Virus record (IMG/VR): IMGVR_UViG_2541047163_000016
Source of the DNA: a virus
Taxonomy: Duplodnaviria > Heunggongvirae > Uroviricota > Caudoviricetes
Reading direction: 5' to 3' (one strand)
Length of the DNA stretch: 40,314 bases
Under the pieces are notes generated by a model. The model saw only the letters and a program-made list of their open reading frames with translations, searched no databases and had not been told where the DNA came from. This document shows positions 521 to 27,625 of this stretch, piece by piece. The translations under genes and the position numbers were made by a program. Numbering within the stretch: position 1 is the first letter of the stretch; every line of letters begins with the position of its first letter.

Positions 521-550
521 ATTTTATAACCCATATACGGGCGCCAGAAA

Positions 551-640
551 TGTATAGCGCGGCGATTTTTTTGATACCGATTTGCATTTCATTTGATACC
601 GCTGAAAAACGCCGATACGCAACTTATTTGATACTAAATC
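551..640. repeat. Right-end (mom-proximal) cluster of putative transposase-binding repeats
   Basis: TTTGATACC at 570-578 and 592-600, TTTGATACT at 627-635, within ~85 bp of the terminus, like clustered R1-R3 sites of Mu attR. Confidence 0.55.
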
Positions 641-680
641 GGCGCTTTTCTTTTGAGTTTTAGAATGAGTTTTTAAGCGC

Positions 681-1418
681 TCATTCACTCTCTTTCAAAC
701 CAGTTTTAACTGTTTGTGGTTTTGGGTAAGGCTGGACTTTGAATAGCTTTGTGTTGAGGCGTTTTCTGGCCCTCTTGTTCAGAAACCGGATGTAACGAAA
801 CTGTCGGAACTTATGAACACTGGCTCTGTCAATATTAGCCCTCAGATGTTCACCTCGTTGTCCGCCTCGTTTAATGGCATTCCTGCAAATCTCGTGATAC
901 CACTCGCCATCAAGTTCATAGAATATTGATTCATGGCTGCCTACATAATCAAAATTGCTTGCCTGATACACGACACCAAGACAGCCACAACGCTCATCTG
1001 CAAACGACTGAACCCACTGTACCTGCGGATAAAGCTGCCTGATTAGCTTGAGCGCGTAACTGATTGCCCTTGATTCGGAGTTTCTCGGCATACAGTCATG
1101 CAGCCATAGCCGGTTAAGCTCCATATATTCTCGGTTCTGCGTACCCGTTACGACGCGTGCACCACTGTTTGGGTTAAGGGCGTAACCCCATTGCATTACG
1201 CCAACAAGTTCCCGTTCTGAAAATATGCCCAGATGAAGGTAGGAGTTATTTACGAAACGGTGGCTGTAATGTTTATTGACGATGACCAGTCTGGCCAGCC
1301 AGCAACTTATTGTCTCAACCCGCAACTCACGGGAGCCATAACCAACGATATTGTCGTTATAGCGAATAAGTTCAGGCGTGCTGATGATTCGGGATGTGAC
1401 TTGCTTTCTGTTCCCCAC
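681..1418 (-). CDS. mom: Mom-like DNA modification protein (GTG start)
   Basis: 245-aa ORF just inside the right end, overlapping the 3' end of the com-like gene by ~47 nt as in Mu; start codon is GTG (plus-strand CAC at 1416-1418) with AAGGA upstream. Call rests on synteny, not recognised motifs. Confidence 0.55.
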
Positions 1419-1572
1419 GACAGGATTTCCTTGTGTATGTGGGGTGCTCTGTGGCGCTCGGAGATGTGATTTGATTGAGGGTTTTACAGCGCGGACATTT
1501 TACTTCCAGATAACTGAAACTGGCCCGTGCCAGTAGCTTATTGCAGTGTCGGCACCGTATGTTTCGATACAT
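1372..1572 (-). CDS. com: Com-like zinc-finger translational activator of mom
   Basis: ATG at 1572 preceded by AGGAGG; product [14 protein letters not shown]...VKCPRCK has the CxxC...CxxC pattern and spacing recalled for Mu Com (IRCKNCNKLL...IRCPRCK); overlaps the mom start. Confidence 0.75.
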
Positions 1573-1615
1573 GACCGCATAACCTCCTGCTTTGTTGTTG
1601 ATGCCTTTCTCATGC

Positions 1616-1640
1616 AATCGATCGACAAAAACGATCGATT
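1616..1640. promoter_or_regulatory. Inverted repeat AATCGATCG-N7-CGATCGATT carrying two GATC (Dam) sites, upstream of com/mom
   Basis: GATC at 1620-1623 and 1633-1636 inside 9-bp inverted-repeat arms, 45-65 bp upstream of the com start; Mu mom promoter is known to be controlled through Dam sites. Confidence 0.5.
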
Positions 1641-1686
1641 CGATTTGTTTAATTGATACAACAAATAGATTGAAAAGTCATCAACA

Positions 1687-2151
1687 ATGATTCAGGGAGG
1701 TGATTATTTACTTAAAGAAAACGAAGAGTTAGGTGGTGAAAACGATCATAAAATGATCATTTTATTGACTTTTTATACAGTGAAGGTAGGATCACGCGTA
1801 TATGTAGTATGTTTCAAATCAACAGGATACTACATAAAAGTGAAACCCAGCATAGCTGGAACTATGCTGGGTCAATCTGTAAAAACTTGCATCAATGCTT
1901 TACTTCGAGCTCGTGGCGTATCCTATGATATTCCCCGGTCTCCTGTAAAGCAGAGATGCATAAAAAGGAGATCTTTATCATGGATGAAAGAGCCTGTTTG
2001 CCCTGCCTGTAAGACTCCCTTACAGCTCATCTATCGCCGTTCTCGATCTCAAAATGGCAAGACATACAAACCCAAAAATGCTTCCTGTTTCAGGATGCTG
2101 ATATGTCCTGCCTGTTCTCCCAGGAGGGAAAATACACAAAACGTGCATTAA
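1687..2151 (+). CDS. Hypothetical protein with C-terminal C4 zinc ribbon; start uncertain (1687, 1753 or 1984)
   Basis: Only sizeable plus-strand ORF in the cargo region; C-terminus CPACKTPL...(29 aa)...CPAC; AAGGAG at 1965-1970 precedes the in-frame ATG at 1984 (55-aa product); converges on the hairpin at 2161-2180. AT-richer than surrounding phage DNA. Confidence 0.35.
   Translation: MIQGGDYLLKENEELGGENDHKMIILLTFYTVKVGSRVYVVCFKSTGYYIKVKPSIAGTMLGQSVKTCINALLRARGVSYDIPRSPVKQRCIKRRSLSWMKEPVCPACKTPLQLIYRRSRSQNGKTYKPKNASCFRMLICPACSPRRENTQNVH
1846..1871 (-). terminator. Perfect 10-bp stem hairpin followed on the minus strand by a U-rich tract
   Basis: CCCAGCATAG-ctggaa-CTATGCTGGG; minus-strand downstream sequence is TTTCACTTTTAT. 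Lies inside the long version of ORF 1687-2151, which argues for the shorter 1984 start. Confidence 0.35.
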
Positions 2152-2160
2152 CAAACTCAC

Positions 2161-2180
2161 CCGGCAGGGAAACCTGCCGG
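2161..2180. terminator. Hairpin between convergent genes
   Basis: CCGGCAGG-gaaa-CCTGCCGG (8-bp stem, GAAA loop) between the stop of 1687-2151 (+) and the stop of 2190-2435 (-), with moderately U-rich flanks on both strands. Confidence 0.5.
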
Positions 2181-2189
2181 TCGGTATTG

Positions 2190-2435
2190 TTACATCATAG
2201 TACCGTCAGTTCCGGGCTGAACCGGCTCTGGTTGCTCTACGGGTTGAGGATCATTTTCCGTGCTGTTTTCAGCCGGAGAACGGCCAACCATTCGGGCCAG
2301 CACTTCATCAACATATGCGTCGATTTGTGCCTCAAAATCCTTGCGAACCTGCGCCTTCAGCACGCGGTTCACTTCTTCAGAATAAAGTGCCTGTTTGACA
2401 AGCTCTTCAGTAACCGTGCCTTTAATCTCTGGCAT
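2190..2435 (-). CDS. Hypothetical small acidic protein (cargo region)
   Basis: 81-aa ORF with AAAGGAGA ribosome-binding site 6 nt upstream of the ATG; no recognisable domain. Confidence 0.6.
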   Translation of the reverse strand: MPEIKGTVTEELVKQALYSEEVNRVLKAQVRKDFEAQIDAYVDEVLARMVGRSPAENSTENDPQPVEQPEPVQPGTDGTMM

Positions 2436-2470
2436 GAATATTCTCCTTTTGCAGGTATATTGCCCCGTTA

Positions 2471-2653
2471 TCAGAGCGGGGTCGGGTCGTTTGGGGATGA
2501 CGGTGCCTGTGCTGTTTTACTGAGTTTTTCAGCTGCCGCATCATCAATTTTACGGCGAATATAATTTCTGATGACCTTATAACCACCGCTCACCAGATAT
2601 AACGCACTGACCACAGCGCAGAAATAAAGCAGCATTGTATGAACGAATGTCAT
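2471..2653 (-). CDS. Hypothetical small membrane protein (cargo region)
   Basis: 60-aa ORF, AAGGTAAGG upstream of ATG; one hydrophobic N-terminal segment (MLLYFCAVVSALYLVSGG) then a charged tail. Confidence 0.55.
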   Translation of the reverse strand: MTFVHTMLLYFCAVVSALYLVSGGYKVIRNYIRRKIDDAAAEKLSKTAQAPSSPNDPTPL

Positions 2654-2766
2654 ATAACCTTACCTTTGATATTGACTACATAATTCGTTATCGGGTAAAA
2701 ACATCGAAGCGACTGATAACCACTCCTTCGGGAGTATTTTTATTTTCCTTTATGGGTTAGGTAGCT

Positions 2767-2801
2767 CCCGCCAGCCATATCATGACCGGCGGGATTTTTT
2801 T
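2767..2801 (+). terminator. Hairpin plus T7 run, plus-strand orientation, abutting the 3' end of the esterase-like gene
   Basis: CCCGCC...GGCGGG stem followed by TTTTTTT on the plus strand; the T-run overlaps the TAA of the minus-strand gene 2800-4839. Would block antisense transcription entering that gene. Confidence 0.4.
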
Positions 2802-4839
2802 ATTCTGTTACCGCTTTTTTCACTTCCACCACAATGCTGTCAATCAGCACCGGGTAAGTTGCATTTTTTGTGATATCCGTTACGCGGAGTTTGTCCACCG
2901 GGAAAGTTCCTACTGGTGACTGCGTCAGGGTAAACGCGGCACCATCCTGACCATCAATAACCGGAATAACCTGAAGGCTGTTATTTCCTGCAAAACGGAA
3001 GGCCAGCGTATGCCATTCATTATCAAATGCACCAAAGGTTCCCAGTTTCTGGTTATTTGTTGCCACTTTTGCATTGTGGTACATCACATTCAGGTCTTTT
3101 GCGTCTGTCTGGATGTAGAACGATGCCAGCAGATTATTCCCTGCATCCCCTGTCAGGGTGACACCCTGCGGCAGAGAGGAAACCGGCCAGTAAAGCCCCA
3201 TGACATACTGGTTTGCCACCAGGTCGCCAGGTACTTTAAAACGACAACTGATTAAACCACCATTTTTCAGCAGTTCAGCACCAGTACCGGCATCATGATC
3301 CAGATACCAAGATGATTTACCTGTTTCCTTGGTCAGTTTCATTGCCTTACCACCTGTGCCTCCTGCATCACTGATAATTTCAGCTTTACCGCCAGCCGGC
3401 TCCCAGCCCTGGGCTTTCAGATTTCCTTCTGACTCACTGACACGATAAGACAGCAGTGTTGTGGTTACTGCTTCAGTTTCTGAAGGTGACGGCACTGGTG
3501 CTTCAGTTTCAGAAGATGGAACATCGGCTTTTACTGTGGTTCGCCCCGCATGAGTCAGAACTGCCGTGGCCAGACGGTCGGAAATAATCCCACGACGTGC
3601 CCATGAACTGAAATGGCTGGCCCGGTCCGCAGATGTCCAGGTGGCGGCACTGTTACGCCACGTTGAGCCGTAATAACCAATGGATTCAATATCCGGGTCT
3701 TCTGCCGGATTGTTGGTGGGTACATTCGCGTCATTTTCATCTGTCATTAATGGAACGAAATGAATGTTTTTATCTGTTTTGTTTTTGTAGCCGCCATAGA
3801 TTGCCTGGTATGCCGGTTCATTTTTCTGTTTCCAGAAATACGTGGTATCGCCACAAATCCACGGAACGCCAGCAGCACTGCCACCGGTACACTGTTCCGC
3901 CTGTTCAGCCAGGTCTGCGCGGAATTTTTCCACCATCGCCAGAAACAGCGCGGAATGCTCCGTCGGCTTCGCATCAATATCAAACTCGCCCTGCATCCAC
4001 ACCACAGCAAGCAGGCGGTTTTTCGGGTTCTTCGCCAGTGCCGCTTTTGTCCGGCTGATTAAGTCCTTATACAGCGGCTTATCCACACCCCAGCGGGCTG
4101 AGTCCTCTGAAGCACCCGTGCTGTCACTGTACGTGCCGTCAGCACCCGCCGTGAATGCAGAACCACCACGGCAGCAGGGAACCAGCAGAATCCCCGCATC
4201 TGCCGGAATAAACGGCAGCAGTTTTTTGGCAATGTGAAGCCCCTGACCCACGGTGCCATATTGCCCTTTAGCCACATCCGCTTTCGGGTGATTTTTTCCA
4301 CTCATATCCTGCACATCATGCAGACAGTGGTCGGCCAGAATGATGTCGTTATACTGACAGGCTTTACCTCCCGGCGTGACTGTACTGCGACGGGCTAACT
4401 GCATAATACGCGGTTCGGGGCGGTCATATGTCTCCGGCAGTGGCAGACCTTCACCGTAAGCCATACCGTTTGACTGACCAGCAAGAACCACCACGTAATA
4501 CCAGGAAGGGGAGCTGGAAGCAGTTTCATTTCCTGACGGACGGGTATGTGTTTCAGCATTATCCCAGTCTGACGGTTCAGCAGTACCGGCAACATCAGCA
4601 CTTAACGGAATGACCGCACCAATACCCGCTCCGGTAATTTCCACACTCGGATCACCGGATACTGGCCTTACCCACAGGCAATCCCGTGTATTAAAACTGA
4701 TGAGACAGTCAGCAAATGTCATTCCTCCTTTTGTTTCGGCCGGAGGAAAGGGAGCCTCAAGAAATGCCGCTGTACCACCGGAAACTTTAACAGTAAAGTT
4801 TCCGGGCATTGATGATAGTTGAACCCATTTGGACGTCAT
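2800..4839 (-). CDS. Large cargo protein: SASA/SGNH-type carbohydrate O-acetylesterase-like domain with C-terminal beta-sandwich/lectin-like region
   Basis: 679-aa ORF with verified ATG; motif VVLAGQSNGMAYG resembles the GQSN(M) nucleophile motif of sialate O-acetylesterase (SASA) family enzymes; serine/threonine/proline-rich linker (...SETEAPVPSPSETEA...) before a C-terminal ~250-aa domain. Not part of the canonical Mu gene set. Confidence 0.55.
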   Translation of the reverse strand: MTSKWVQLSSMPGNFTVKVSGGTAAFLEAPFPPAETKGGMTFADCLISFNTRDCLWVRPVSGDPSVEITGAGIGAVIPLSADVAGTAEPSDWDNAETHTRPSGNETASSSPSWYYVVVLAGQSNGMAYGEGLPLPETYDRPEPRIMQLARRSTVTPGGKACQYNDIILADHCLHDVQDMSGKNHPKADVAKGQYGTVGQGLHIAKKLLPFIPADAGILLVPCCRGGSAFTAGADGTYSDSTGASEDSARWGVDKPLYKDLISRTKAALAKNPKNRLLAVVWMQGEFDIDAKPTEHSALFLAMVEKFRADLAEQAEQCTGGSAAGVPWICGDTTYFWKQKNEPAYQAIYGGYKNKTDKNIHFVPLMTDENDANVPTNNPAEDPDIESIGYYGSTWRNSAATWTSADRASHFSSWARRGIISDRLATAVLTHAGRTTVKADVPSSETEAPVPSPSETEAVTTTLLSYRVSESEGNLKAQGWEPAGGKAEIISDAGGTGGKAMKLTKETGKSSWYLDHDAGTGAELLKNGGLISCRFKVPGDLVANQYVMGLYWPVSSLPQGVTLTGDAGNNLLASFYIQTDAKDLNVMYHNAKVATNNQKLGTFGAFDNEWHTLAFRFAGNNSLQVIPVIDGQDGAAFTLTQSPVGTFPVDKLRVTDITKNATYPVLIDSIVVEVKKAVTE

Positions 4840-4938
4840 AATAATCAGCCTGTTCCTGAATAAACTGAATTATCATATCCACAGACCGATAAACGCCATT
4901 TTGCGTTAATTCAGTAAAGGCCCAACAAAGGGAGCGTC

Positions 4939-5499
4939 TTATTTTTCCGAAACGCTCGCAGGATAATAACGATAAAGGGTTGAAAGGCCGATATCAAAAA
5001 TAAGTGCCACCTGTCTTCGACTGACACCCCCGGCCAGTAAACGCCCGACCTGCTCGTATTGTTCCTGCGTGAGACGACGGGGTCTGCCGCCGGTTCGTCC
5101 CCTTTCACGGGCAGCTGCAAGACCAGCCCGTGTCCGTTCGACAATTAATTCACGCTCCATTTCTGCCAGCGCACCCATTATGTGAAAAAAGAAGCGCCCC
5201 ATGGGGGTTGACGTATCAATGTTGTCAGTAAGACTACGAAAATTTATCCCCTGTTGCTGTAATTCATCTGTCAGCGCAACAAGGTGGCGCATACTGCGCC
5301 CCAGCCTGTCCAGTTTCCAGACCATCAGTGTGTCACCGGGTTTTAGTTTCTTCAGTGCCCGCTTCAGTCCCGGCCGCTGTGTCGTTTTACCACTCATTTT
5401 ATCTTCAAAAATCTGCTCACATCCTGCACATTCCAGCGCATTTCTTTGTAAACCTGTGTTCTGGTCATTTGTTGATACGCGTATATAGCCAATCAGCAT
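4939..5499 (-). CDS. gin: Gin/Hin/Pin/Cin-family serine DNA invertase
   Basis: MLIGYIRVSTNDQNT...VWKLDRLGRS...FFHIMGALAEMERELI... closely matches the recalled Mu Gin sequence; lies next to a gix-like site and the tail-fibre module. Confidence 0.92.
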   Translation of the reverse strand: MLIGYIRVSTNDQNTGLQRNALECAGCEQIFEDKMSGKTTQRPGLKRALKKLKPGDTLMVWKLDRLGRSMRHLVALTDELQQQGINFRSLTDNIDTSTPMGRFFFHIMGALAEMERELIVERTRAGLAAARERGRTGGRPRRLTQEQYEQVGRLLAGGVSRRQVALIFDIGLSTLYRYYPASVSEK

Positions 5500-5553
5500 G
5501 TATTTACCTTCCTTAAAAAGAGGTGGAAAGGCCTTTTAAAGCAGATATACGGC

Positions 5554-5579
5554 ATCCCTGAAACCTCGGTTTACGGGAT
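5554..5579. other. gix-like recombination site (gin-proximal)
   Basis: ATCCCTGAAACC-TC-GGTTTACGGGAT: 12+2+12 bp pseudo-palindrome resembling the Mu gix site TTATCCAAAACC-TC-GGTTTACAGGAA; lies in frame at the 5' edge of the silent tail-fibre cassette. Confidence 0.6.
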
Positions 5580-5924
5580 ACTGTAAACAGGGCCGCGAAT
5601 GCCCTGCCATCGAACGGAGCGGCTGTTGCAGCGAATAAACTCGCCACTCCAAGAAATATTAATGGTGTCCCATTTGACGGAACGCAGGATATAAATATTA
5701 CATCGGGGATGACGCAGTCTGTGGCTGACTCACGTTATGTTCAAAGCATTCGAAGAGGTTCAAGGTCAACGATTGGAATGCAATATAATATTTTTGAGGT
5801 TCCTGACGGATGCGTACTTACAGGGCTTGATGTCGCTGGTGATGGTAATGCAACGGTAACCGCATATTATCGACCTGTTCAGTTTCTGATAGATGGTTCG
5901 TGGAAAACAGCTTCCAGCGCATAA
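5562..5924 (+). other. Promoterless alternative tail-fibre C-terminal cassette (S'v-like)
   Basis: In-frame from the stop at 5559-5561: GLRDTVNRAANALPS...ATPRNINGVPFDGTQDINITSGMTQSVADSRYVQ... parallels residues 178-240 of the expressed tail fibre and then diverges; ends ...YYRPVQFLIDGSWKTASSA. Confidence 0.6.
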
Positions 5925-6003
5925 AAGTGCAGTAGTTCAAAAAACAGATTATCTGAATAAATATATGATGATTTTGTCTTTTCAACAAAAACAAGGTGAA
6001 ATA

Positions 6004-6525
6004 ATGGAGCTTATTAACGTAAAACGATATTACCCGGAACACAAACCCTATGGTGAGGATGTTCAGTATTTCCAGAGTGAGGACGGAAGGGATTTTTATG
6101 AATCTATCCCGCTTTTCACAAAGAAATACAAACTCTGTATTTCGCCTGTAACGGGTATTATCTGCTCTGTTGCTGAAGATGTCTCTGCTTTATATCCGGC
6201 AGGTTTTACTGTTGTTGAAGTGGACGAACTGCCGGAAGGTGTGAATATTGACGGTAACTGGCAGTTTTCTGATGGCCTGATATCAAAGGTGCCGGTAAAC
6301 TGGAAGACGGTTGCTGAAAAGCGCCGCTCATCGCTGCTCCAGGAAGCCAACGAAACTGTGGATGACTGGAAAACGGAATTAAAACTGGACATGATTAGCG
6401 ATGAAAATAAATTACAGCTGACGCGCTGGATGGCGTATATCCGACAGCTTAAAGAAATGCACTTTAATGATATTGCCAGTGAGGGGCATTACCAGGCGAT
6501 TCCCTGGCCGGAAAAACCGGAATAA
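6004..6525 (+). CDS. Tail fibre assembly protein (U'-like), belonging to the silent cassette
   Basis: 173-aa product from the ATG at 6004 (AAGGTGA upstream); size, position after a fibre C-terminus and ...HYQAIPWPEKPE ending fit tail-fibre assembly (Tfa/U) proteins. Alternative start at 5965. Confidence 0.65.
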   Translation: MELINVKRYYPEHKPYGEDVQYFQSEDGRDFYESIPLFTKKYKLCISPVTGIICSVAEDVSALYPAGFTVVEVDELPEGVNIDGNWQFSDGLISKVPVNWKTVAEKRRSSLLQEANETVDDWKTELKLDMISDENKLQLTRWMAYIRQLKEMHFNDIASEGHYQAIPWPEKPE

Positions 6526-6530
6526 TTCAG

Positions 6531-6555
6531 AGGGTGCATTCAGCACCCTTTTCTG
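6531..6555. terminator. Bidirectional hairpin terminator between convergent tail fibre and U' genes
   Basis: AGGGTGC-attca-GCACCCT followed by TTTCTG on plus and preceded by an A-rich tract; sits between stop 6523-6525 (+) and stop 6560-6562 (-). Confidence 0.6.
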
Positions 6556-6559
6556 TGGT

Positions 6560-7471
6560 TTACACTGAACTTACCGTTCTCCAGGCATTATTAATATAAA
6601 TCTGAACCGGGCGATAATAGACCCCACCGATATTGTCCGCAGACCGGGAGCCGGTTTCCTGCACGTTAATTCCGGAAAGCATACAACCGGAAGGTGCGCT
6701 GTAATTCCATGACATTTCATTGCCTCCGGGTGAATGATAGCTCTGTGCTCCAAGCTGAACATTCTGTACATACCGGCCATCTGCGGTTGACTGCGTCATT
6801 CCTGACGTGATGTTGATATCCAGCGTTCCGTCAAAAGGAACACCATTAATATTTCTTGGGGTGGCGAGTCTGTTTGCTGCCACGGCGGTTCCACCCGATG
6901 GCAGGGCATCAGCAGCCTTATTTACCGTTTCCCGTAAACCAACGTTATCGATAAAAGCGCCTTTATCCGGAATGTCTGCGCCGTTCTGCTCCCTGCGCAG
7001 GTAACGGTTATCACCTTCGCTTTTGCTGTAAACATCCAGATTATTACGGGCGGTTCCCGCATTCTCCAGGTCGGCAAGGTTCTGATCCTTCGCCAGAGCA
7101 TTAACGTCACCGGGACCAAGACTGTTTTTTGTGGCAAGCGCCCCAAGACCAAGATAACCACGGGCAAGACGCTGGGCTTCCGCACCGGCATCAGCAATTT
7201 CTTTCAGGTTGTTTTTCCGGGAAAAGGCATTCGCAGCGATAATGGCTTTAATGGACAGCGTAAGCTGGTTTAACTGCGCCTTATCCGGCTGAATACTGGC
7301 TTCAGCCAGAATATTCAGCAGTTCGGCCTGGAGAATATTCAGCCAGTCCTGACCAATCCAGCTGATACCTTTTTGTCCGTCACCTTCGGTAAACCAGGTG
7401 GTGGTATTACTCTGCGCCGGTGCCAGCGCAGGCATATTCGCCACGCCGGAATTATTATCAACATGAAACAT
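6560..7471 (-). CDS. Tail fibre protein (S-like), currently expressed variant
   Basis: ATG at 7471 overlaps the upstream stop (TAATG) and is preceded by GAGGAG; C-terminal ~127 aa parallels the silent cassette; ends ...GGVYYRPVQIYINNAWRTVSSV. The ORF-track start at 7525 lies inside the upstream gene. Confidence 0.75.
   Translation of the reverse strand: MFHVDNNSGVANMPALAPAQSNTTTWFTEGDGQKGISWIGQDWLNILQAELLNILAEASIQPDKAQLNQLTLSIKAIIAANAFSRKNNLKEIADAGAEAQRLARGYLGLGALATKNSLGPGDVNALAKDQNLADLENAGTARNNLDVYSKSEGDNRYLRREQNGADIPDKGAFIDNVGLRETVNKAADALPSGGTAVAANRLATPRNINGVPFDGTLDINITSGMTQSTADGRYVQNVQLGAQSYHSPGGNEMSWNYSAPSGCMLSGINVQETGSRSADNIGGVYYRPVQIYINNAWRTVSSV
6929..6954. other. gix-like recombination site inside the tail fibre gene
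   Basis: Read on the minus strand: TTATCGATAACG-TT-GGTTTACGGGAA (10/12 and 11/12 matches to the Mu gix half-sites); encodes FIDNVGLRE at tail-fibre residues 173-181, exactly where homology with the silent cassette begins. Confidence 0.5.
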
Positions 7472-17393: not shown

Positions 17394-17954
17394 TTACAGT
17401 TCCTCCGGCGGTTCGACCGCCGTTGTCGTGTTCCCCGGCAAATCAATATGTGCCTCAAACGGCGGCGTACCGGGCGGCTCCACAAAGGTTTCGTAATGAC
17501 GCAGGAAGTCGTCCAGCGAGCTGGTATCGGTCAGCGGTGCGATCATTTCCTCGCAGGAGAAATAAAGCGCATACATCACCGCACCACTGTCCGCCTGGGT
17601 TTCGGTGTAACCGTTGACCGCCTTTTCAAAGTAAAGCGGTGAGGTTTTTTCTGTTCTGAAGCCGTTAAGCACGGCAATCAGCCGGGCCACAATCTGATAC
17701 AGTCCGGGACGGCTGGCCTCACGCCCGTTGAGCATGTCGCCGATGACGTAGAACACCCAGTGACTGACCAGGCGACCACGGGTACGGCCTTCACCGGCAC
17801 CCAGCCAGGCAACGTAGATCGCCGGGGCGTTAATCAGCATGGTGCGCAGTACGCTGTCGCTCCAGTCGCCGGGATGCGTGTCAACAGACACCAGTTCATT
17901 CCCGAAATACTCACGGATACGGGCGATGTATGCCTGTTCGGTTTCCGTAATCAT
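17394..17954 (-). CDS. Head-tail region protein (Mu gp37-like)
   Basis: 186-aa ORF in conserved position between head and tail genes. Confidence 0.55.
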   Translation of the reverse strand: MITETEQAYIARIREYFGNELVSVDTHPGDWSDSVLRTMLINAPAIYVAWLGAGEGRTRGRLVSHWVFYVIGDMLNGREASRPGLYQIVARLIAVLNGFRTEKTSPLYFEKAVNGYTETQADSGAVMYALYFSCEEMIAPLTDTSSLDDFLRHYETFVEPPGTPPFEAHIDLPGNTTTAVEPPEEL

Positions 17955-18370
17955 ATGAAGCCCTTCTGGTTGCGCCCGAATACCGCTGCATCAGACTGAA
18001 CCTGTGGTAAATCCCCGGATTCAGGGGCCGCACCGTTCGTATCCACACCGACCGGCACATTGCCGTTCATGACATCTTTCAGCCAGGCCAGCGCTTCACG
18101 GTAACGGTCACGCGCCTGATCGGAGGCTCGCTGATCGCACAGGTAATAAAAGGCAATCGCGCAACAGTGCTGAACAAGAACGGCCGGAATAACCTCCAGC
18201 GGCAACGTGTAACGGGCGGACAGATAGCTGTCGATAAGGGCTGACGCATCTGTCAGCGCCCGGTTCAGCTTGCGCGTGTCCGGCTCATCCGAACGGGGCA
18301 CAGCCAGTAACGGCCTGAGCAAATCCTCGCGGTAACGCGCCCGCATATCGGTTTCAGTGGCGTAATTCAT
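17951..18370 (-). CDS. Head-tail connector-region protein (Mu gp36-like)
   Basis: 139-aa ORF; start codon verified at 18370. Confidence 0.55.
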   Translation of the reverse strand: MNYATETDMRARYREDLLRPLLAVPRSDEPDTRKLNRALTDASALIDSYLSARYTLPLEVIPAVLVQHCCAIAFYYLCDQRASDQARDRYREALAWLKDVMNGNVPVGVDTNGAAPESGDLPQVQSDAAVFGRNQKGFI

Positions 18371-18783
18371 GCACGGGCCTGTTCCGCTTTGTTACCGGTC
18401 TTTTTCCGGGGAGCATCCTGTCCGGCTTCGGCTTCGGCTTCGGCTTCGGCTTCGGCTTCGGCTTCGGCTTCGGCTTCGGCTTCGGCTTCGGCTTCGGCTT
18501 CGGCTAAATCTGTACCGGCCACTGCATGAACCACACCCGCCACGCTCCCCGCATCATCAGCAGACGTCTGTAGTATTCGCACAGTGAGGCATGGCTCCTC
18601 CTCCAGTCGGGCAAGCTGCTCCGGGGTGACCTCAACCTGCTGACGTCCACGCGTGAACAGGAACCCCGCACGACGAAACGCCGAACGACTGCAACGCACT
18701 TCTGCCAGCACCGTGACAGAATTGTCACCACTGACCTGAAGACCTGAATCATCTGTTGCTGCCACAGTGTGATGTTCATTCAT
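18367..18783 (-). CDS. Head-region protein with internal (Ala-Glu)14 repeat
   Basis: 138-aa ORF just downstream of the major head gene; residues ~95-122 are AEAEAE... encoded by the hexanucleotide array. Confidence 0.6.
   Translation of the reverse strand: MNEHHTVAATDDSGLQVSGDNSVTVLAEVRCSRSAFRRAGFLFTRGRQQVEVTPEQLARLEEEPCLTVRILQTSADDAGSVAGVVHAVAGTDLAEAEAEAEAEAEAEAEAEAEAEAEAEAGQDAPRKKTGNKAEQARA
18423..18505. repeat. Hexanucleotide tandem repeat (CGGCTT)13-14
   Basis: 13 perfect CGGCTT units plus one imperfect unit; in-frame (GAA-GCC = Glu-Ala) within gene 18367-18783. Confidence 0.9.
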
Positions 18784-18826
18784 ATTTGCCCTCCGCAGGG
18801 GCCGGGCCGTAAGCCCGGCTCACCGT

Positions 18827-19774
18827 TTACAGATAATCCGCGACAACCAGCTCCAGCTTACCCTTCATCTCGTTAGAGACGGTTGCGTTTCCGTCTGCGA
18901 ACAGTTCACGCTCCAGCAGCTGCACCGCCTGTTTTTCCAGCGAGGTGGGGACAACAATATGGGTGGGTTTAATGCCGAGTTTGCGGCCACCGTCAGCGGT
19001 AAATTCGCGCATGGCTGACCAGCCGTGCCACAGTGCATCCAGCGTCAGCGGTGACTGCATCATGTAGGCCATCTGCCAGAAGCCGTAGCCCACATTGCGA
19101 CGGGCGGATGCACCAAACACAAATTCGTTATCGGTGAATGCGCGACCTTCATCGACTTTGGTCTGGGCAACCAGTTCAGCCTTACGGCGATCCTGATAAA
19201 TCAGCGGTTTTACCGCGCGGGAGCAGTCAAGCAGATACCAGGCCGGACCGCTGTAATCAGCCTGTGCGCCGACAGAGCCGGTTTTTGCCACAAACATATT
19301 GCTGACCATCTGCGCATCCCCGGAGCCATCCACTTTGGGGTAAACCGGATGTTCGGTATCAAAGAAGTTCTGACCGTCATAGCAGGCCGCACTGATCCCG
19401 TCACGCAGGGCAGCAAAGACCAGCTCATCCGGTTGTACCGCCGCAGCGCGCCCCATCTCCTGGAACAACGGGGAATAAATACCGAGGTTGTCGTCTTCGA
19501 AGTCATCGCGGCTAATGGCGACAGTGCCTTCAAAAGTTTTGTTCACGATGGCATAGCCATAGGCTTTCATCTTCTCGATGACGCGGGAGCCGATCCACTC
19601 ACGGAACTGCGGGAACTGCCCCAGCCAGCCGTAGGTGTTGGATTTCGATGTGGAGGGCACGGTCATCGCAATTTTTTTATACTGCGACGGGGCCATGGAC
19701 ATCCCGGCCTGAAAATCAGAACGGTAGCCCGTCATCAGGGCTGTGATCATCGCCGGTGTAATCGGGGTAGGCAT
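18827..19774 (-). CDS. Major head (capsid) protein, Mu T-like
   Basis: 315-aa ORF following the I-like gene with TAATG stop/start overlap. Confidence 0.8.
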   Translation of the reverse strand: MPTPITPAMITALMTGYRSDFQAGMSMAPSQYKKIAMTVPSTSKSNTYGWLGQFPQFREWIGSRVIEKMKAYGYAIVNKTFEGTVAISRDDFEDDNLGIYSPLFQEMGRAAAVQPDELVFAALRDGISAACYDGQNFFDTEHPVYPKVDGSGDAQMVSNMFVAKTGSVGAQADYSGPAWYLLDCSRAVKPLIYQDRRKAELVAQTKVDEGRAFTDNEFVFGASARRNVGYGFWQMAYMMQSPLTLDALWHGWSAMREFTADGGRKLGIKPTHIVVPTSLEKQAVQLLERELFADGNATVSNEMKGKLELVVADYL

Positions 19775-20898
19775 TATTGCATTTCCTCTTTCATTTTCAG
19801 GAACTCGGCTTCGGTTTTACCCAGCAGTTTGGCGGCCGCGATATCTTCAGCCGACAGCGCAGCGGTGGCAGTCTTTTTATCCGGCACGGTCACGGTGTCG
19901 GTCTGAAGAGAGGTCAGGGCCGCAACCGGCTGGCGGGCGTCAAGCTGTGCAGAAAGTGCCGCAACGCCAATCTGCCCGCCCAGTTGTTCCAGATAGCCGC
20001 GTTCGCTTTTGAAGATGCGCCCTTCGGATTCAGCCTTGTCCAGCACCTGCTCCAGCGTGGTGCTGCCGTGCTGCGCCGACAGCGCAACGTATTCGGTACG
20101 CAGGGCGTTATACGTTTCAACGGGCACGTATTTCGTCAGATCAATAATGCCGCCAGCCGGTGTGCCTTTTGCGGTTTCCAGCTCTGCCGACAGACTGGCG
20201 ACCTGTGTTTTCAGGTTGTCGTGTGCATCCGCACGGGTTTTGATCCCGGTGAGGGCAGACAGCGCCGCCGTGCCCAGCTCCGGCGTAAATTCGTCACCGT
20301 CAGCCACGGTCAGACCGAGCGCCGTCAGCAACTGGCGTAATTGCTCATTCATGGAGGTATCCTTTAAAGGAGGGTTTAAGGCGTTATAAAGGTCATCCGC
20401 CGACAGCGCGGCGACAGGATTCATGCCGGTCAGACCGGGGTCACCGGTAATAGCCAGCATCCGAAGTTCGACAGGTTCGCCGGTGTTCTCGTCATAGCCA
20501 ATCACCGGTGAAAACCAGGGGAATTCGTTATTACGCAGATGTTCAAGGGCCGGAGGGTTCCACTTCGGGCGCACCTCGAAGCCACGCTCTTCACTGAAGC
20601 GAAAATTCTCCGGTGAGGCCATCACAAAACCGGCAGCCGGTGCCTGATGCCCCTTAATCAGGGTCTGGTGGTTGTAGTCAATTTTCACCGGCTGATTGAG
20701 CGCCACAACCCGGGATACCATGCGCTCAACGGTCGCACGGTTAATCAGCCAGCCCTCGGCCGGTTTTTCCGGGCGACCGTCACGGGCCTTTACCCGACCG
20801 GCTGGCATGATCTGACACCAGTCACCGTCCCCGTCTGCGGACAGGCTGATGGCATTCAGAATGGCATAAGCAAGTTTGGGCGTGTTTTTCGTCTTCAT
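19774..20898 (-). CDS. Head protease/scaffold protein, Mu I-like
   Basis: 374-aa ORF; first gene after a 175-bp intergenic region, as for the Mu I operon. Confidence 0.75.
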   Translation of the reverse strand: MKTKNTPKLAYAILNAISLSADGDGDWCQIMPAGRVKARDGRPEKPAEGWLINRATVERMVSRVVALNQPVKIDYNHQTLIKGHQAPAAGFVMASPENFRFSEERGFEVRPKWNPPALEHLRNNEFPWFSPVIGYDENTGEPVELRMLAITGDPGLTGMNPVAALSADDLYNALNPPLKDTSMNEQLRQLLTALGLTVADGDEFTPELGTAALSALTGIKTRADAHDNLKTQVASLSAELETAKGTPAGGIIDLTKYVPVETYNALRTEYVALSAQHGSTTLEQVLDKAESEGRIFKSERGYLEQLGGQIGVAALSAQLDARQPVAALTSLQTDTVTVPDKKTATAALSAEDIAAAKLLGKTEAEFLKMKEEMQ

Positions 20899-21044
20899 TC
20901 CGGCAGCATAAGCCGGGAATTTTCAGGGCGGGTTTTGCGGGATTTCAGGAAGTGCTTCCAGGGGAAAAATACAAAGGCGCTTCACGCAGATTTTAAAGCC
21001 CGTTAAATACAGGTTAGAAAATCACGACACGCGCCTGAAGGGGG

Positions 21045-21069
21045 TAAGGTAATGCATTTGCATACCTTA
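21045..21069. promoter_or_regulatory. 25-bp near-palindrome in the intergenic region upstream of the I-like gene
   Basis: TAAGGTAATGCATTTGCATACCTTA: outer 6-7 bp arms plus inner ATGC/GCAT pairs; begins 6 nt after the G-like stop; no U-tract follows on either strand. Confidence 0.3.
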
Positions 21070-21074
21070 AACAA

Positions 21075-21548
21075 TTAAGGCGTTTCTGTGGCCTTTTTAA
21101 AGCGTTTTCTGATTTCGTCCATGATCTCCTGCTCTGCCACCTGATCAAAGCCCATATACGGGCGTGCGCCAATGGCCGCCGGTCCCGGTGGCATACCAGG
21201 CAGGCCACCCCACTGATGAATGGCCGCATAAGGCTCATTTGATCCAATCAGCGCCCAGGTATCGCCATAATCCGTGGTCAGGCGTCGGGCCAGATCGCCG
21301 TTCAGCGTCAGGATTTTGCCGGGCATGTATCCCTTACGGGTACGCCACTTGCGGTAAGGATCTGACCAGTCATGCCAGCGTTCGCCGTCCGGCTCTTTTT
21401 CCTGTTCAAACGCCATTTCTGACGATGACAGAAGACTCGCCGCCACACTGCGGGCCAGGTCTTTCCCTCCACCCACAAACTGAAGCCGGGCAAAGACCCG
21501 CTGGAGACGCGTAACGTCAACAACGACAGCGGCATCAATGGATGACAT
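21075..21548 (-). CDS. Virion morphogenesis protein, Mu G-like
   Basis: 157-aa ORF between the F-like and I-like genes. Confidence 0.65.
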   Translation of the reverse strand: MSSIDAAVVVDVTRLQRVFARLQFVGGGKDLARSVAASLLSSSEMAFEQEKEPDGERWHDWSDPYRKWRTRKGYMPGKILTLNGDLARRLTTDYGDTWALIGSNEPYAAIHQWGGLPGMPPGPAAIGARPYMGFDQVAEQEIMDEIRKRFKKATETP

Positions 21549-21669
21549 ATTGCCTCCGCATAAAGGATGAATATAAAATAAACAGGCGGTCAGTGTACGC
21601 TTAACTGGTAAAGTCGGTGCCTGCCTCCGGGTGGATCATGTATGCGGGTTCAACCCCCGCCACTGACCG

Positions 21670-23001
21670 TTAATCAATATCTCCTTCCAGTACCTCAAGC
21701 ATTCCACCCCGGATATCCGATTTCAGCTTATCCATATTGATAACCCGGTAAGCATTCACAATCACATCCAGTTTATCCGGCTGACGCTTCAGGCTGTACG
21801 GCGCATTAACGGCAATCTGCACACTGCTATCCTTACTTTCCACGATATACATCAGATTGTTGTGGCGTTTGTCCCACAGCACCGCTTTTGGCTTTGCCAG
21901 CATTGCCGGTAATCGACCGAAATCCTCCGGCGTCAGGGCGATACCGTCATTCTGATGTTTCATGCTGTCCGCATGGAGCACATTTTTACCGCTCATCGCC
22001 AGCAGGCGGGCCGGTGGCGTTCCCGTCCGGCTTTCCACCGCCTGCGCAATGCTTTCGGTCATAAAGCCCAGCGTGCGGATATCGTTACCGCCTCGCCGGG
22101 TTTTCATGATGTTTTTTGCCCAGATGCGGAACGCCAGCTGCCGCTCCGGGCTGTTGTTCATCTCCTGCACTACCATTTCCCGCAGCGCCGGGCTTTTCAC
22201 CTCGATCAGTTTACGGATCAACGCCTGGTCTGTGCCGAACGCCGCCGAGCCGGGGTTATATGACCAGCCCACATCCGGTGTCATGGTTCTGGTGCCATCT
22301 GAATATGTGGTCACCGGCATTTCTCTGACTTCTCCGGTCTGCTTATCCACGCCAGCCTCAACATTGCGGGTGGAAAGATGATCCTGACCGGATGAAACGG
22401 ATAACCCCATTGCATCCAGACGGGTCTGAGACAATGGCCGGACACGGCAGCGGCAGTTCCAGCCATTGGGTGGGTAGTGTGTATTCCAGAACGGATCGTC
22501 ATAGCGGAATACCTGCCCGTTAAGGGCGGAATGCGCCGGGCGGGTGCGGCTGTCCATCACCGCCACATACTGCCAGAACGGATGCGTGTCCGTGTTGTTC
22601 ATCATCTGCGTGTAACGCCCGGCATTGTAAGCCACGCGGGTGTTCACGTTGTAAATCAGCGCCAGACGGCGGGGACTGCCCAGTTGCACTTCTTCTGCGT
22701 TACCGGCGCTGTCCACCACAATCTGCTTTCCCCACCATCCCAGCTTTTGCAGGCGGGGTGTCAGTGTGCGGATAAATGCTTTCTGTGAAATCCCCTCATC
22801 AACAGCACGCTGCACTTCCGCCTGTAGTGTGGTCAGTACGTCCAGGCGTGCCACTTTTGCCGCCGTGAATGAACGGGCATGAACATCCGCGTCTGTTTCG
22901 AACCAGTTCCAGCTGATATGCGCCCCTTTGGCGCGGAAGTATGCCACCGCCTCTTTTGAGGGAAGCGTGGCGGCATAACCTAAATCAATCCCCTGTGCCA
23001 T
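21670..23001 (-). CDS. Head morphogenesis protein, Mu F-like (gp30)
   Basis: 443-aa ORF directly after the portal gene. Confidence 0.75.
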   Translation of the reverse strand: MAQGIDLGYAATLPSKEAVAYFRAKGAHISWNWFETDADVHARSFTAAKVARLDVLTTLQAEVQRAVDEGISQKAFIRTLTPRLQKLGWWGKQIVVDSAGNAEEVQLGSPRRLALIYNVNTRVAYNAGRYTQMMNNTDTHPFWQYVAVMDSRTRPAHSALNGQVFRYDDPFWNTHYPPNGWNCRCRVRPLSQTRLDAMGLSVSSGQDHLSTRNVEAGVDKQTGEVREMPVTTYSDGTRTMTPDVGWSYNPGSAAFGTDQALIRKLIEVKSPALREMVVQEMNNSPERQLAFRIWAKNIMKTRRGGNDIRTLGFMTESIAQAVESRTGTPPARLLAMSGKNVLHADSMKHQNDGIALTPEDFGRLPAMLAKPKAVLWDKRHNNLMYIVESKDSSVQIAVNAPYSLKRQPDKLDVIVNAYRVINMDKLKSDIRGGMLEVLEGDID

Positions 23002-26819: not shown

Positions 26820-26821
26820 CG

Positions 26822-27417: not shown

Positions 27418-27625
27418 GACGGGCCTCCATGATGTTCTGGCAGTTCACACAACGGATGGCATCCGGCACAGCAACAAGACGTGCGGCGGGGATCTCTCCG
27501 CCACAGTCCGCGCAGACACGTCTGCCCGGAGCATCCATTGCCCGGCGCTTACGTGTCAGCCGGTTACAAAGGGCGCGTTCTGATCCCCGCTCCATCACAG
27601 CCTGAGCACGATCTGAATCATCCAT
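27398..27625 (-). CDS. TraR/DksA-family C4 zinc-finger protein
   Basis: ATG at 27625 preceded by AAGGA; C-terminus CADCGGEIP...CVNCQ is the C4 finger typical of phage TraR/DksA-like proteins. Confidence 0.6.
   Translation of the reverse strand: MDDSDRAQAVMERGSERALCNRLTRKRRAMDAPGRRVCADCGGEIPAARLVAVPDAIRCVNCQNIMEARHVGQHR

What the first reader, a model, noticed from the sequence alone, without database searches (positions are those of the whole stretch)
540..555. Insertion junctions: a perfect 5-bp direct repeat AAATG conflicts with TG...CA termini
AAATG occurs at 548-552 and again at 39869-39873, and it is the only perfect 5-bp duplication compatible with the reconstructed empty site. Yet both ends read inward as TGTA (551-554; reverse complement of 39866-39869), which would place Mu-type TG/CA termini at 551 and 39869 and leave only a 2-bp duplication. 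Either the termini of this element are not TG/CA, or the duplication has mutated, or the TGTA match is coincidental.
Basis: seen in the sequence. Interest (0 to 1): 0.5.

Follow-up and report, generated by a model that had tools for sequence, protein, structure and literature searches.

The report
Mu-like prophage: TA end, 4-bp duplication
The two junctions belong to an Sp18-type Mu-like prophage whose real ends are 5'-TG…TA-3' (window 39869 and 553) and whose insertion duplicated 4 bp (AATG), not 5, which departs from the textbook Mu rule of TG…CA ends and a 5-bp duplication.

Summary
In detail: AAATG lies at 548-552 and 39869-39873, and TGTA reads inward at both ends.

Comparison with 17 other independent insertions of the same prophage family shows that the conserved element runs from T553 to A39869. 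In phage orientation it reads 5'-TGTAACC…GCGCTATA-3'. The TG at 551-552 is target DNA. A39869 is the element's last base, not part of the duplication.

The true duplication is AATG (549-552 and 39870-39873). It looks like 5 bp only because the next target base happens to equal the element's terminal base. That coincidence occurs in 5 of the 17 four-bp insertions.

Across the family, 17 of 18 insertions have exactly 4 bp and one has 5 bp. A sister clade (transposase about 78% identical, TA at both ends) gives 2 of 2 with 4 bp. A true Mu prophage analysed the same way gives TG…CA and 5 bp.

The transposase is a distant MuA relative: 22% identity, and its profile hits the MuA transpososome chain 4FCY at E = 6e-25. 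The B protein is 48% identical to MuB.

The 4-bp repeat is annotated in one GenBank record (LC727881.1). I found no paper that describes it. Reviews state that Mu-like phages have TG-CA ends and duplicate 5 or 6 bp.

The parts
553..39869 (-). Complete Sp18-type Mu-like prophage, 39,317 bp. The phage map runs on the minus strand: repressor end at 39869, mom end at 553.
   Evidence: Homology with 283 copies in 232 E. coli genomes stops at these two bases. The element is 99.93% identical to the copy in CP028607 with no single-base indels. The gene content is Mu-like.
549..552 (.). Left copy of the 4-bp target duplication, AATG.
   Evidence: It directly abuts conserved terminus T553 and is identical to 39870-39873. 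The register scan supports k = 4 in 17 of 18 insertions.
39870..39873 (.). Right copy of the 4-bp target duplication, AATG.
   Evidence: It directly abuts conserved terminus A39869.
553..554 (+). Mom-end (attR) terminal dinucleotide: TA read inward, so the transferred strand ends …CTATA-3'. This is the non-canonical end.
   Evidence: It is invariant in all 18 insertions. It aligns base for base with Mu's attR TGAAGCG as TATAGCG.
39868..39869 (+). Repressor-end (attL) terminal dinucleotide: CA on the plus strand, which is 5'-TG in phage orientation. This is the canonical end.
   Evidence: 55 of 60 alignments reach 39869 or beyond and none ends at 39868. The five that end at 39867 are TATAACC variants.
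570..634 (+). Three direct TTTGATAC cores at 570, 592 and 627 (inward positions 18, 40 and 75). These are putative transposase-binding sites R1-R3.
   Evidence: The function is inferred from the repeat pattern and from the Mu end layout as I recall it.
39698..39852 (-). Three TTTGATAC cores on the minus strand (GTATCAA at 39698, 39750 and 39845 on the plus strand; inward positions 165, 113 and 18). These are putative sites L3, L2 and L1.
   Evidence: The terminal core starts 18 nt from the terminus at both ends only if the termini are 553 and 39869.
36505..38595 (-). Transposase A, 696 aa: a distant MuA-type DDE enzyme.
   Evidence: Pfam Mu-transpos_C at 1.5e-17 and HTH_Tnp_Mu_1 at 6.9e-6. The family profile hits the MuA transpososome chain 4FCY_A at 6e-25. 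D309, D375 and E415 are invariant. Identity to MuA is 22%.
35501..36433 (-). MuB-like AAA+ transposition ATPase, 310 aa.
   Evidence: Pfam Phage-MuB_C at 2.5e-25 and AAA_22. It is 48% identical to the MuB of a true Mu prophage.
38884..39597 (+). Putative repressor, divergently oriented at the left end of the phage map.
   Evidence: Position and orientation. There is a weak DicA-like HTH hit. Equivalent genes in other copies are annotated as HTH proteins.
681..1418 (-). The mom DNA-modification gene, the last gene at the right end of the phage map.
   Evidence: Pfam Mom at 4e-77. It shows about 71% nucleotide identity to the mom genes of Mu, D108 and SfMu.
541..552 (+). 5' half of the interrupted target: the stem and loop of the J-lom intrinsic terminator. 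The 3' half is at 39870-39885.
   Evidence: The rejoined site folds as GGGCGCCA-GAAA-UGGCGCC followed by a U run, at -15.7 kcal/mol and z = -3.1.

Best explanation
A 39,317-bp Sp18-type Mu-like transposable prophage (window 553-39869, phage map on the minus strand) transposed into the loop and 3' stem of the intrinsic terminator between gpJ and lom of a lambdoid prophage.

Its transposase is a distant MuA-type DDE enzyme with invariant D309, D375 and E415. It presumably binds three TTTGATAC-core sites at each end. It exposes the 3'-OH of the terminal A on each transferred strand: …GGTTACA-3' at the repressor end and …GCGCTATA-3' at the mom end. It then joins these to target phosphates staggered by 4 bp, and host repair of the gaps creates the duplication.

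The termini are therefore 5'-TG…TA-3'. The duplication is AATG at 549-552 and 39870-39873. The apparent fifth base is a coincidence between target base A548 and the element's terminal A39869. The TG at 551-552 is target DNA.

Shown directly: the positions of the termini, the duplication length, the protein family assignments and the repeat layout of the ends. Inferred: that the repeats are the binding sites, and that the 4 bp reflects a 4-bp stagger of strand transfer.
For: (1) Empty site. The reconstructed empty site is found at 100/100 identity in many genomes.

(2) Population boundaries. With a probe running 22 nt into this window's flank, 27 of 60 sampled alignments start exactly at 553. 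The rest extend 1-4 nt at chance-like frequencies, and none starts inside the element. At the other end, 34 of 60 stop exactly at 39869 and none at 39868.

(3) Junction pairs. Eighteen independent insertions were read at both junctions. Seventeen have a perfect 4-bp repeat directly against 5'-T(G/A)TAACC…GCGCTATA-3'. In a scan of boundary shifts from -2 to +2 at each end and repeat lengths 4-6, only the unshifted boundaries with k = 4 fit, in 17 of 18 insertions.

(4) Independent annotation. The depositors of LC727881.1 annotated a 4-bp 'duplication due to insertion' at exactly these boundaries.

(5) Symmetry. The first TTTGATAC core begins at position 18 from the terminus at both ends only with termini at 553 and 39869. 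The terminal 30 nt of the two ends then align at 19 of 30 positions without gaps.

(6) Homology of the terminus. Mu attR TGAAGCG, Sp18 attR TATAGCG and sister-clade attR TAAAGCG align in one register.

(7) Positive control. A true Mu prophage in E. coli W gives TG…CA and a 5-bp GCGGC repeat by the same method.

(8) Sister clade. With a transposase about 78% identical, it has TA at both ends and a 4-bp duplication in 2 of 2 cases.

(9) Sequence quality. There are no single-base indels over 39.3 kb relative to an independent assembly.

(10) Activity. The family occupies 283 places in 232 genomes, with up to 4 copies per genome. Sp18 DNA is packaged into particles (PMC2669165).
Against: One of the 18 insertions (CP028126) has a 5-bp repeat, CGTCT, so the 4-bp spacing is not absolute.

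No biochemical or virion-end data were available. A 4-bp stagger is inferred from prophage scars alone.

The binding-site assignment rests on repeat pattern only.

Both flanking genes, J and lom, look frameshifted in this window. That would be a warning sign for indel errors, although the element itself shows none.
Confidence: 0.9

Rival explanations
1. The element spans 553-39868 with non-inverted termini (TA…AC on the window strand) and made a canonical 5-bp duplication, AAATG.
For: AAATG is a perfect 5-bp repeat at the two junctions and is compatible with the empty site. Five bp is the textbook value for Mu (PMC3562280).
Against: A39869 is present at every other insertion, next to unrelated flanks: 55 of 60 alignments reach it and none stops at 39868. 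It is also present in all 17 other junction pairs and in the 10 IMG/VR loci that retain host flank. It therefore belongs to the element. The corresponding 5-bp register fits only 5 of 18 insertions, about the 25% expected by chance. This model would also put the first binding-site core at unequal distances from the two ends.
Confidence: 0.03
2. The termini are Mu-type TG/CA at 551 and 39869, and the 5-bp duplication has decayed or was never made, leaving only 2 bp.
For: Both ends read TGTA inward. TG…CA is regarded as universal for Mu-like phages (PMC8705779, PMC5977238).
Against: TG 551-552 is part of the uninterrupted target sequence. It is not conserved at other insertions: only 20 of 60 alignments extend as far as 551, and 7 of those are one clonal insertion. 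In the 18 junction pairs, the bases before TATAGC vary freely. Taking 551 as the terminus would put the first binding-site core at 20 nt from one end against 18 nt from the other.
Confidence: 0.02
3. The transposase makes the usual 5-bp stagger, and one base is then lost. The loss could come from a sequencing error in the A run at 39869-39871, from a deletion after insertion, or from systematic trimming during flap removal and gap repair. The scar would then look like 4 bp.
For: J and lom in the flanks look frameshifted, so indels exist nearby. One family member does show 5 bp. Sequence alone cannot tell a 4-bp stagger from a 5-bp stagger followed by an obligatory one-base loss.
Against: Nineteen of 20 insertions from many laboratories and sequencing platforms show the same 4 bp. 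That rules out random error or sporadic deletion. The element has no single-base indels relative to an independent assembly. No target base is missing relative to the empty site. A model in which cleavage occurs one base inside the end predicts copies that lack the terminal A or T, and none was seen among the 60 sampled alignments at each end.
Confidence: 0.05

Closest known systems
Prophage Sp18 of E. coli O157:H7 Sakai (NC_002695.2, inserted in sorM)
   Same: It is the same phage family. The terminal sequences are identical (TGTAACCAGG… and …CGCCGCGCTATA), the gene order is the same, and nucleotide identity is 97-99.9% over most of the genome. It too has a 4-bp duplication, TAAA.
   Different: The insertion site differs (sorM rather than the J-lom terminator), and the repressor region is partly mosaic. 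The Sakai record draws the prophage from the G of TGTAACC to 5 nt beyond CTATA, so its annotated boundaries are offset from the conserved ends.
Bacteriophage Mu (MuA/MuB; control copy in E. coli W, NC_017664.1)
   Same: It is a transposable myovirus with the order c-ner-A-B…gin-com-mom and insertion at essentially random sites. As I recall the Mu end layout, it also has three A-binding sites per end in an L1…L2-L3 / R1-R2-R3 arrangement. B is 48% identical. The attR terminal heptamer is homologous (TGAAGCG against TATAGCG), and attL begins with TGTA in both.
   Different: Mu has CA-3' at both ends and a 5-bp duplication (PMC3562280). Here the mom end is TA-3' and the duplication is 4 bp. The transposase is only 22% identical. 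The repeated core of the end sites is TTTGATAC, which does not occur in the first 50 nt of either Mu end shown; those ends carry CGAAA-type motifs instead.
D3112/DMS3-group Pseudomonas transposable phages, with Pseudomonas phage VW-6B and Klebsiella phage Kp4852-3
   Same: They carry the closest sequenced free-phage transposases: VW-6B 48%, Kp4852-3 41%, and the D3112 group about 30%.
   Different: D3112-group genomes start with TGT and end with ACA (PMC5977238), and DMS3 makes a 5-bp duplication (PMC11406979). They are siphoviruses, whereas this element has Mu-type sheath and baseplate genes.
TA-TA transposable prophages of Leptospira (B3/Tn552-type; PMC8705779)
   Same: These are natural transposable prophages whose ends carry TA instead of TG/CA and that have demonstrably moved.
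   Different: Their transposase is B3/Tn552-type and they make a 6-bp duplication. That paper calls TA-TA ends new and asks whether they exist in other bacteria. Here they occur in E. coli with a MuA-type enzyme and a 4-bp duplication.
Retroviral integrases
   Same: They share the RNase-H-fold DDE core; the family profile hits RSV, ASV and HIV integrase cores. Attack is by the 3'-OH of a terminal A. The duplication length is characteristic of the enzyme and varies from 4 to 6 bp among relatives (PMC4422553).
   Different: The mobile element is of an unrelated kind. This is an analogy for how the stagger can differ among homologous enzymes, not a claim of membership.

Membership tests
Mu-like transposable phages (Mu sensu lato) | A MuA-type DDE transposase | tested here: met
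   Pfam Mu-transpos_C at 1.5e-17 and HTH_Tnp_Mu_1 at 6.9e-6. The family profile's best PDB hit is the MuA transpososome chain 4FCY_A at 6e-25, and it also hits 1BCM and 1TNS. D309, D375 and E415 are invariant. D309 and D375 align with MuA's GDG and DN motifs.
Mu-like transposable phages (Mu sensu lato) | A MuB-type AAA+ target-capture ATPase next to A | tested here: met
   Phage-MuB_C at 2.5e-25 and AAA_22. It is 48% identical to MuB over 300 aa.
Mu-like transposable phages (Mu sensu lato) | Insertion at many unrelated sites with a short target duplication, and no site-specific integrase | tested here: met
   There are 283 places in 232 genomes, within many different genes. Every one of the 18 junction pairs has a flanking direct repeat.
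Mu-like transposable phages (Mu sensu lato) | Mu gene order: divergent repressor, ner-like gene, A, B, gam, mor, lysis, head, tail, invertase, com-mom | tested here: met
   Annotations of near-identical copies and ORFs and domains in the window.
Mu-like transposable phages (Mu sensu lato) | Several transposase-binding repeats at each end, widely spaced at the left end and clustered at the right | tested here: inconclusive
   TTTGATAC cores lie at inward positions 18, 113 and 165 (left end) and 18, 40 and 75 (right end). The layout matches the Mu layout as I recall it, but binding was not tested.
Mu-like transposable phages (Mu sensu lato) | Virion DNA carries variable host DNA at both ends (headful packaging from integrated copies) | not testable with these tools
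   Only prophage sequence is available. The literature reports that Sp18 DNA is packaged and not circularised (PMC2669165).
Canonical Mu type (Mu, D108, SfMu; also the rule stated for D3112- and B3-like phages) | 5'-TG…CA-3' at both termini | tested here: not met
   The repressor end is TG in this window, and TA in 4 of the 18 copies. The mom end is TA-3' in all 18 copies. The sister clade has TA at both ends. The Mu control gives TG…CA.
Canonical Mu type (Mu, D108, SfMu; also the rule stated for D3112- and B3-like phages) | A 5-bp target duplication (6 bp for the B3 type) | tested here: not met
   The duplication is 4 bp in 17 of 18 Sp18-type insertions and in 2 of 2 sister-clade insertions. 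It is 5 bp in the Mu control.

The most novel reading that the evidence does not exclude
A widespread enterobacterial lineage of Mu-like phages includes Sp18 of O157 Sakai, sequenced in 2001, and a sister clade found in E. coli, Salmonella, Shigella and Yersinia. This lineage uses a highly diverged MuA-type transposase that naturally works on TA-3' termini and joins the ends 4 bp apart. Neither property has been described for a transposable phage in the literature I could search, where TG-CA ends and 5- or 6-bp duplications are treated as defining. It would give a natural pair of systems, in the same host and on the same MuB-type and virion background, for asking what sets the stagger length and the terminal-dinucleotide requirement in Mu-type transpososomes.
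Probability: 0.5. Interest if true: 0.6.

Novelty: new variant of a known kind. Interest (0 to 1): 0.5.

Why it matters
For annotation, prophage boundaries and scars of Sp18-type elements are easily drawn wrongly if a 5-bp duplication and TG/CA ends are assumed. The Sakai reference record itself is offset from the conserved ends. Tools that detect Mu-like insertions by looking for a 5-bp overlap of split reads would misplace or miss these events in STEC genomes, where the phage is common and often interrupts Stx and other prophages.

For mechanism, the terminal CA and the 5-bp stagger are treated as hallmarks shared by Mu and HIV. A natural, active Mu-type system with a TA end (or two) and a 4-bp stagger shows that both can change within the family. 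It also answers the question raised in PMC8705779 of whether TA-ended transposable prophages exist outside Leptospira, and it offers a tractable E. coli system for finding the determinants.

Tried and rejected
1. Pattern scans of the species-representative genomes. The strict pattern covering both ends gave 0 hits. A loose pattern fixing 18 bases gave 13 singleton hits in unrelated phyla, which matches chance expectation. These scans yielded no relatives outside the E. coli collections.

2. The phage collection. No sequenced free phage has these ends. The only matches are 'inserted Mu-like phage' regions in two Stx prophage records.

3. The viral-contig scan for the Sp18 repressor end. It gave 11 loci, all on contigs too short to hold both ends, so they served only to confirm the terminal T.

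4. A single-sequence phmmer search of the transposase against the PDB missed MuA. A family profile was needed.

5. Structure prediction was not run. Only the shallow set of homologues at 76% identity or more was eligible as input, and the profile hit to 4FCY already settled the family.

6. Mechanistic alternatives considered and rejected. Cleavage one base inside the end predicts copies that lack the terminal base, and none was seen. Cleavage one base outside predicts a 5-bp repeat offset by one base, which does not fit. Target preference cannot explain the conserved T and A, because the matching positions in the other repeat copy vary freely.

7. Lee & Harshey's papers on the terminal CA dinucleotide could not be retrieved. 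I therefore make no quantitative claim about how well MuA tolerates TA.

8. tRNA and Rfam scans of the window found nothing.

9. No complete E. coli genome in the collection carries this exact J-lom insertion, so the source strain was not identified.

Full report
OBSERVATION

The sequence features are exactly as described. AAATG is at 548-552 and 39869-39873. TGTA is at 551-554, and the reverse complement of 39866-39869 is also TGTA. Joining 500-552 to 39874-39920 gives a sequence found at 100/100 identity between gpJ and lom of lambdoid prophages in many E. coli genomes; 1364 records are at least 99% identical. The rejoined site is a GNRA-loop intrinsic terminator (GGGCGCCA-GAAA-UGGCGCC followed by a U run; -15.7 kcal/mol, z = -3.1).

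WHAT THE ELEMENT IS

The 39.3 kb between the junctions is a Mu-like prophage whose map runs on the minus strand.

- A putative repressor lies at 38884-39597 (+).
- The transposase A lies at 36505-38595 (-). It has Pfam Mu-transpos_C at 1.5e-17 and HTH_Tnp_Mu_1 at 6.9e-6.
- The B protein lies at 35501-36433 (-). It has Phage-MuB_C at 2.5e-25 and an AAA domain.
- The mom gene lies at 681-1418 (-), with Pfam Mom at 4e-77.

The element belongs to the family of prophage Sp18 of E. coli O157:H7 Sakai. That family is present at 283 places in 232 of 5426 complete E. coli genomes, within many different genes and with up to four copies per genome. Sp18 DNA is reported to be packaged and not circularised (PMC2669165). 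Sp18-like phages are reported at variable loci, often inside other prophages (PMC10132054, PMC7430833). No genome in the collection carries this exact J-lom insertion, so the window is an independent event.

WHERE THE ELEMENT ENDS

I used probes that run 22 nt into this window's flanks, so that at other insertion sites the alignment must stop where the element stops.

At the mom end, 27 of 60 sampled alignments start exactly at window 553. Thirteen start at 552, five at 551, four at 550 and nine at 549 (seven of those nine are one clonal insertion). One starts at 545 and one at 531, and none starts inside 553. That is the pattern expected for random flanks next to a terminus at 553. If the TG at 551-552 belonged to the element, every alignment would reach 551.

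At the repressor end, 34 of 60 alignments stop exactly at 39869 and 21 run further. None stops at 39868. The five that stop at 39867 are copies with a C-to-T change at 39868.

The conserved element is therefore 553-39869. In phage orientation it reads 5'-TGTAACCAGG…CGCCGCGCTATA-3'.

THE DUPLICATION

I read both junctions of 17 further independent insertions. These are Sakai sorM and insertions in gpJ, cas7e, next to flgG, paaA, fimD, a diguanylate cyclase gene, a portal gene, caiB/caiC, oppF, a fimbrial gene, tssM, ydeE, an Stx2c phage, flgL, torZ and a head-closure gene.

With the window included, 17 of 18 have a perfect direct repeat of exactly 4 bp lying directly against the conserved ends. 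The fifth base does not match on either side except by chance. One insertion (CP028126) has 5 bp, CGTCT.

I scanned all boundary shifts from -2 to +2 at each end and repeat lengths of 4, 5 and 6. Only the unshifted boundaries with k = 4 fit, in 17 of 18 insertions.

For this window the duplication is AATG at 549-552 and 39870-39873. It looks like AAATG only because target base A548 equals the element's terminal A39869. The TGTA at 551-554 is target TG followed by element TA.

Independently, the depositors of LC727881.1 annotated a 4-bp 'duplication due to insertion of Mu_JNE082796' at exactly these boundaries.

CHECKS

1. Positive control. A true Mu prophage in E. coli W has a 663-aa transposase and a 312-aa B protein. 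Its ends are TGAAGCGGCGCACG… and …TCAATACA. Analysed the same way, it gives TG…CA termini and a perfect 5-bp repeat, GCGGC.

2. Symmetry. Each end carries three TTTGATAC cores, all in inward orientation, at positions 18, 113 and 165 (repressor end) and 18, 40 and 75 (mom end). As I recall the Mu ends, this mirrors their L1…L2-L3 / R1-R2-R3 layout. The first core is 18 nt from the terminus at both ends only if the termini are 553 and 39869, and the terminal 30 nt of the two ends then align at 19 of 30 positions without gaps. Spacing between the terminus and the first binding site is known to be critical in Tn7-like relatives (PMC10201428).

3. Homology of the terminus. Mu attR TGAAGCG, Sp18 attR TATAGCG and sister-clade attR TAAAGCG line up in one register. 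T553 is therefore the homologue of Mu's terminal base, with G replaced by A at position 2. On the transferred strand that is CA-3' becoming TA-3'.

4. Sequence quality. J and lom in the flanks look frameshifted. However, the element differs from an independently assembled copy (CP028607) by only 8 substitutions and one 18-bp indel, with no single-base indels in 39.3 kb. A lost A at the junction is therefore unlikely, and it could not explain the same 4 bp in 16 other Sp18-type insertions.

5. Alternative chemistries. Cleavage one base inside an end would generate copies lacking the terminal base, and none was seen. Cleavage one base outside would give a 5-bp repeat offset by one base, which does not fit.

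BREADTH

Four of the 18 copies (in paaA, fimD, the diguanylate cyclase gene and flgL) begin with TATAACC at the repressor end. They have TA at both ends, lie at four different sites, and each has a 4-bp duplication, so TA-TA elements are mobile.

The transposase has a 98%-identity cluster of 7044 member sequences. It also has a large sister clade at 76-80% identity in E. coli, Salmonella, Shigella and Yersinia. Eight sister-clade copies at eight different sites all begin 5'-TATAGAGAGGTAAATCATTTGATACT, again with the core at position 18. Two complete sister-clade insertions have TA at both ends and 4-bp duplications: TTAA in strain S6 and GTGC in an IMG/VR contig. The mom-end boundary of that clade is confirmed at population level.

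THE ENZYME

The transposase is only 22% identical to MuA, and a single-sequence search misses MuA. Its closest sequenced free-phage relatives are Pseudomonas phage VW-6B (48%), Klebsiella phage Kp4852-3 (41%) and the D3112/DMS3 group (about 30%).

A profile of 51 diverse family members hits the MuA transpososome chain 4FCY_A best (E = 6e-25). It then hits TnsB (2e-17), the MuA core 1BCM (1e-15), the MuA N-terminal domain 1TNS (1e-13) and retroviral integrase cores. D309, D375 and E415 are invariant. D309 and D375 align with MuA's GDG and DN motifs.

The B protein is 48% identical to MuB, and mom is about 71% identical at nucleotide level to Mu's. The picture is a Mu-type virion, MuB and mom backbone combined with a strongly diverged transposase. 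The diverged end-site repeats, the TA terminus and the 4-bp duplication have come with that transposase.

MECHANISM

This part is inferred. The transposase binds the three sites at each end and pairs the ends. It exposes the 3'-OH of the terminal A on each transferred strand (…TTACA-3' and …CTATA-3'). It joins them to target phosphates 4 bp apart, presumably with MuB-type target capture. Host repair fills the two 4-nt gaps.

The 19 four-bp targets show a weak two-fold preference centred on the middle of the 4 bp:

- G at -2 in 11 of 19.
- Pyrimidine at duplication position 1 in 15 of 19.
- Purine at position 4 in 13 of 19.
- C at +2 in 9 of 19.

That is what a symmetric 4-bp stagger would predict, but the sample is small.

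The single 5-bp case suggests occasional slippage of the spacing. Duplication length also varies from 4 to 6 bp among homologous retroviral integrases (PMC4422553).

COMPARISON WITH WHAT IS KNOWN

- Mu is described as having CA at each end and a 5-bp stagger (PMC3562280).
- MuA gave a 5-bp duplication in 11 of 11 in vitro insertions (PMC1475752).
- D3112-group genomes start with TGT and end with ACA (PMC5977238).
- A 5-bp duplication is called characteristic of Mu and Mu-like phages (PMC11406979).
- B3 makes 6 bp (PMC8705779).
[quoted passage not shown] It reports TA-TA ends as new in Leptospira (B3-type, 6 bp) and asks whether they exist in other bacteria.

I found no paper that gives the ends or duplication length of Sp18-type phages. 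The only trace is the 4-bp repeat_region annotation in LC727881.1. The Sakai record draws Sp18 from the G of TGTAACC to 5 nt past CTATA, so its boundaries are offset from the conserved ends. The library I could search lacks most subscription-journal papers, so prior description cannot be excluded.

VERDICT

It is resolved by a third model: asymmetric termini, 5'-TG…TA-3', at 39869 and 553, and a 4-bp duplication, AATG.

The element is a member of the known Sp18 family of Mu-like prophages. That family departs from two textbook hallmarks of Mu-like phages, and the departures are consistent, shared with a sister clade, and apparently undescribed in print. I rate it a new variant of a known kind, of moderate interest.

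Noticed in passing
window 255-305 and 40180-40210: Both flanking lambdoid genes look frameshifted. The J reading frame changes around the GA run at 261-275: one frame stops at about 297-302, and the normal C-terminus …[12 protein letters not shown] continues in another frame to 520. The lom ORF (39910-40205) stops early, and its normal C-terminus continues in another frame after about 40186. These may be real pseudogenes or local indel errors.
   Followed up: partly
window 541-552 joined to 39870-39885: The prophage landed in the loop and 3' stem of a strong GNRA-loop intrinsic terminator between gpJ and lom (-15.7 kcal/mol, z = -3.1). It splits that terminator.
   Followed up: yes
L023/L024 (NZ_CP028126.1, portal gene of another prophage): This is the only exception among the 18 Sp18-type insertions: a 5-bp duplication, CGTCT, with otherwise identical ends. 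It may reflect occasional 5-bp spacing, or one carried-over flank base.
   Followed up: partly
window 39400-39693, compared with copies listed: Many copies share only the last ~176 bp of the repressor end with the window (query 295-470). Upstream, the repressor region is replaced or only 80-87% identical. The immunity region is mosaic, while the terminal stretch carrying the three site cores stays conserved.
   Followed up: no
L001 (NC_002695.2, 5040971-5079729): The reference annotation of Sp18 in O157 Sakai starts at the G of TGTAACC and ends 5 nt beyond CTATA. It is offset from the conserved ends, as if an imperfect 5-bp duplication (TAAAT/TAAAG) had been assumed.
   Followed up: yes
L017, L019, L022, L036 (repressor ends of four copies): There is a polymorphism at the terminal dinucleotide within the family. 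Four copies begin with TATAACC instead of TGTAACC, so they have TA at both ends. Each lies at a different site with a 4-bp duplication.
   Followed up: yes
window 35501-38595 compared with L068 32922-35890: Neighbouring genes have diverged very unevenly from Mu. The transposase is 22% identical to MuA, while the adjacent B protein is 48% identical to MuB and mom is about 71% identical at nucleotide level. This suggests module exchange or rapid divergence of the transposase together with its end sites.
   Followed up: partly
19 target sites listed: There is a weak two-fold-symmetric target preference around the 4-bp duplication: G at -2, pyrimidine at position 1, purine at position 4, C at +2. 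The sample is too small for firm statistics.
   Followed up: partly
L036 20867-20946 and L037 21539-21626: RefSeq annotates a 'tRNA-OTHER' between the virion-morphogenesis and minor-head genes in two divergent copies. ARAGORN finds no tRNA anywhere in the window, and Rfam finds nothing.
   Followed up: partly
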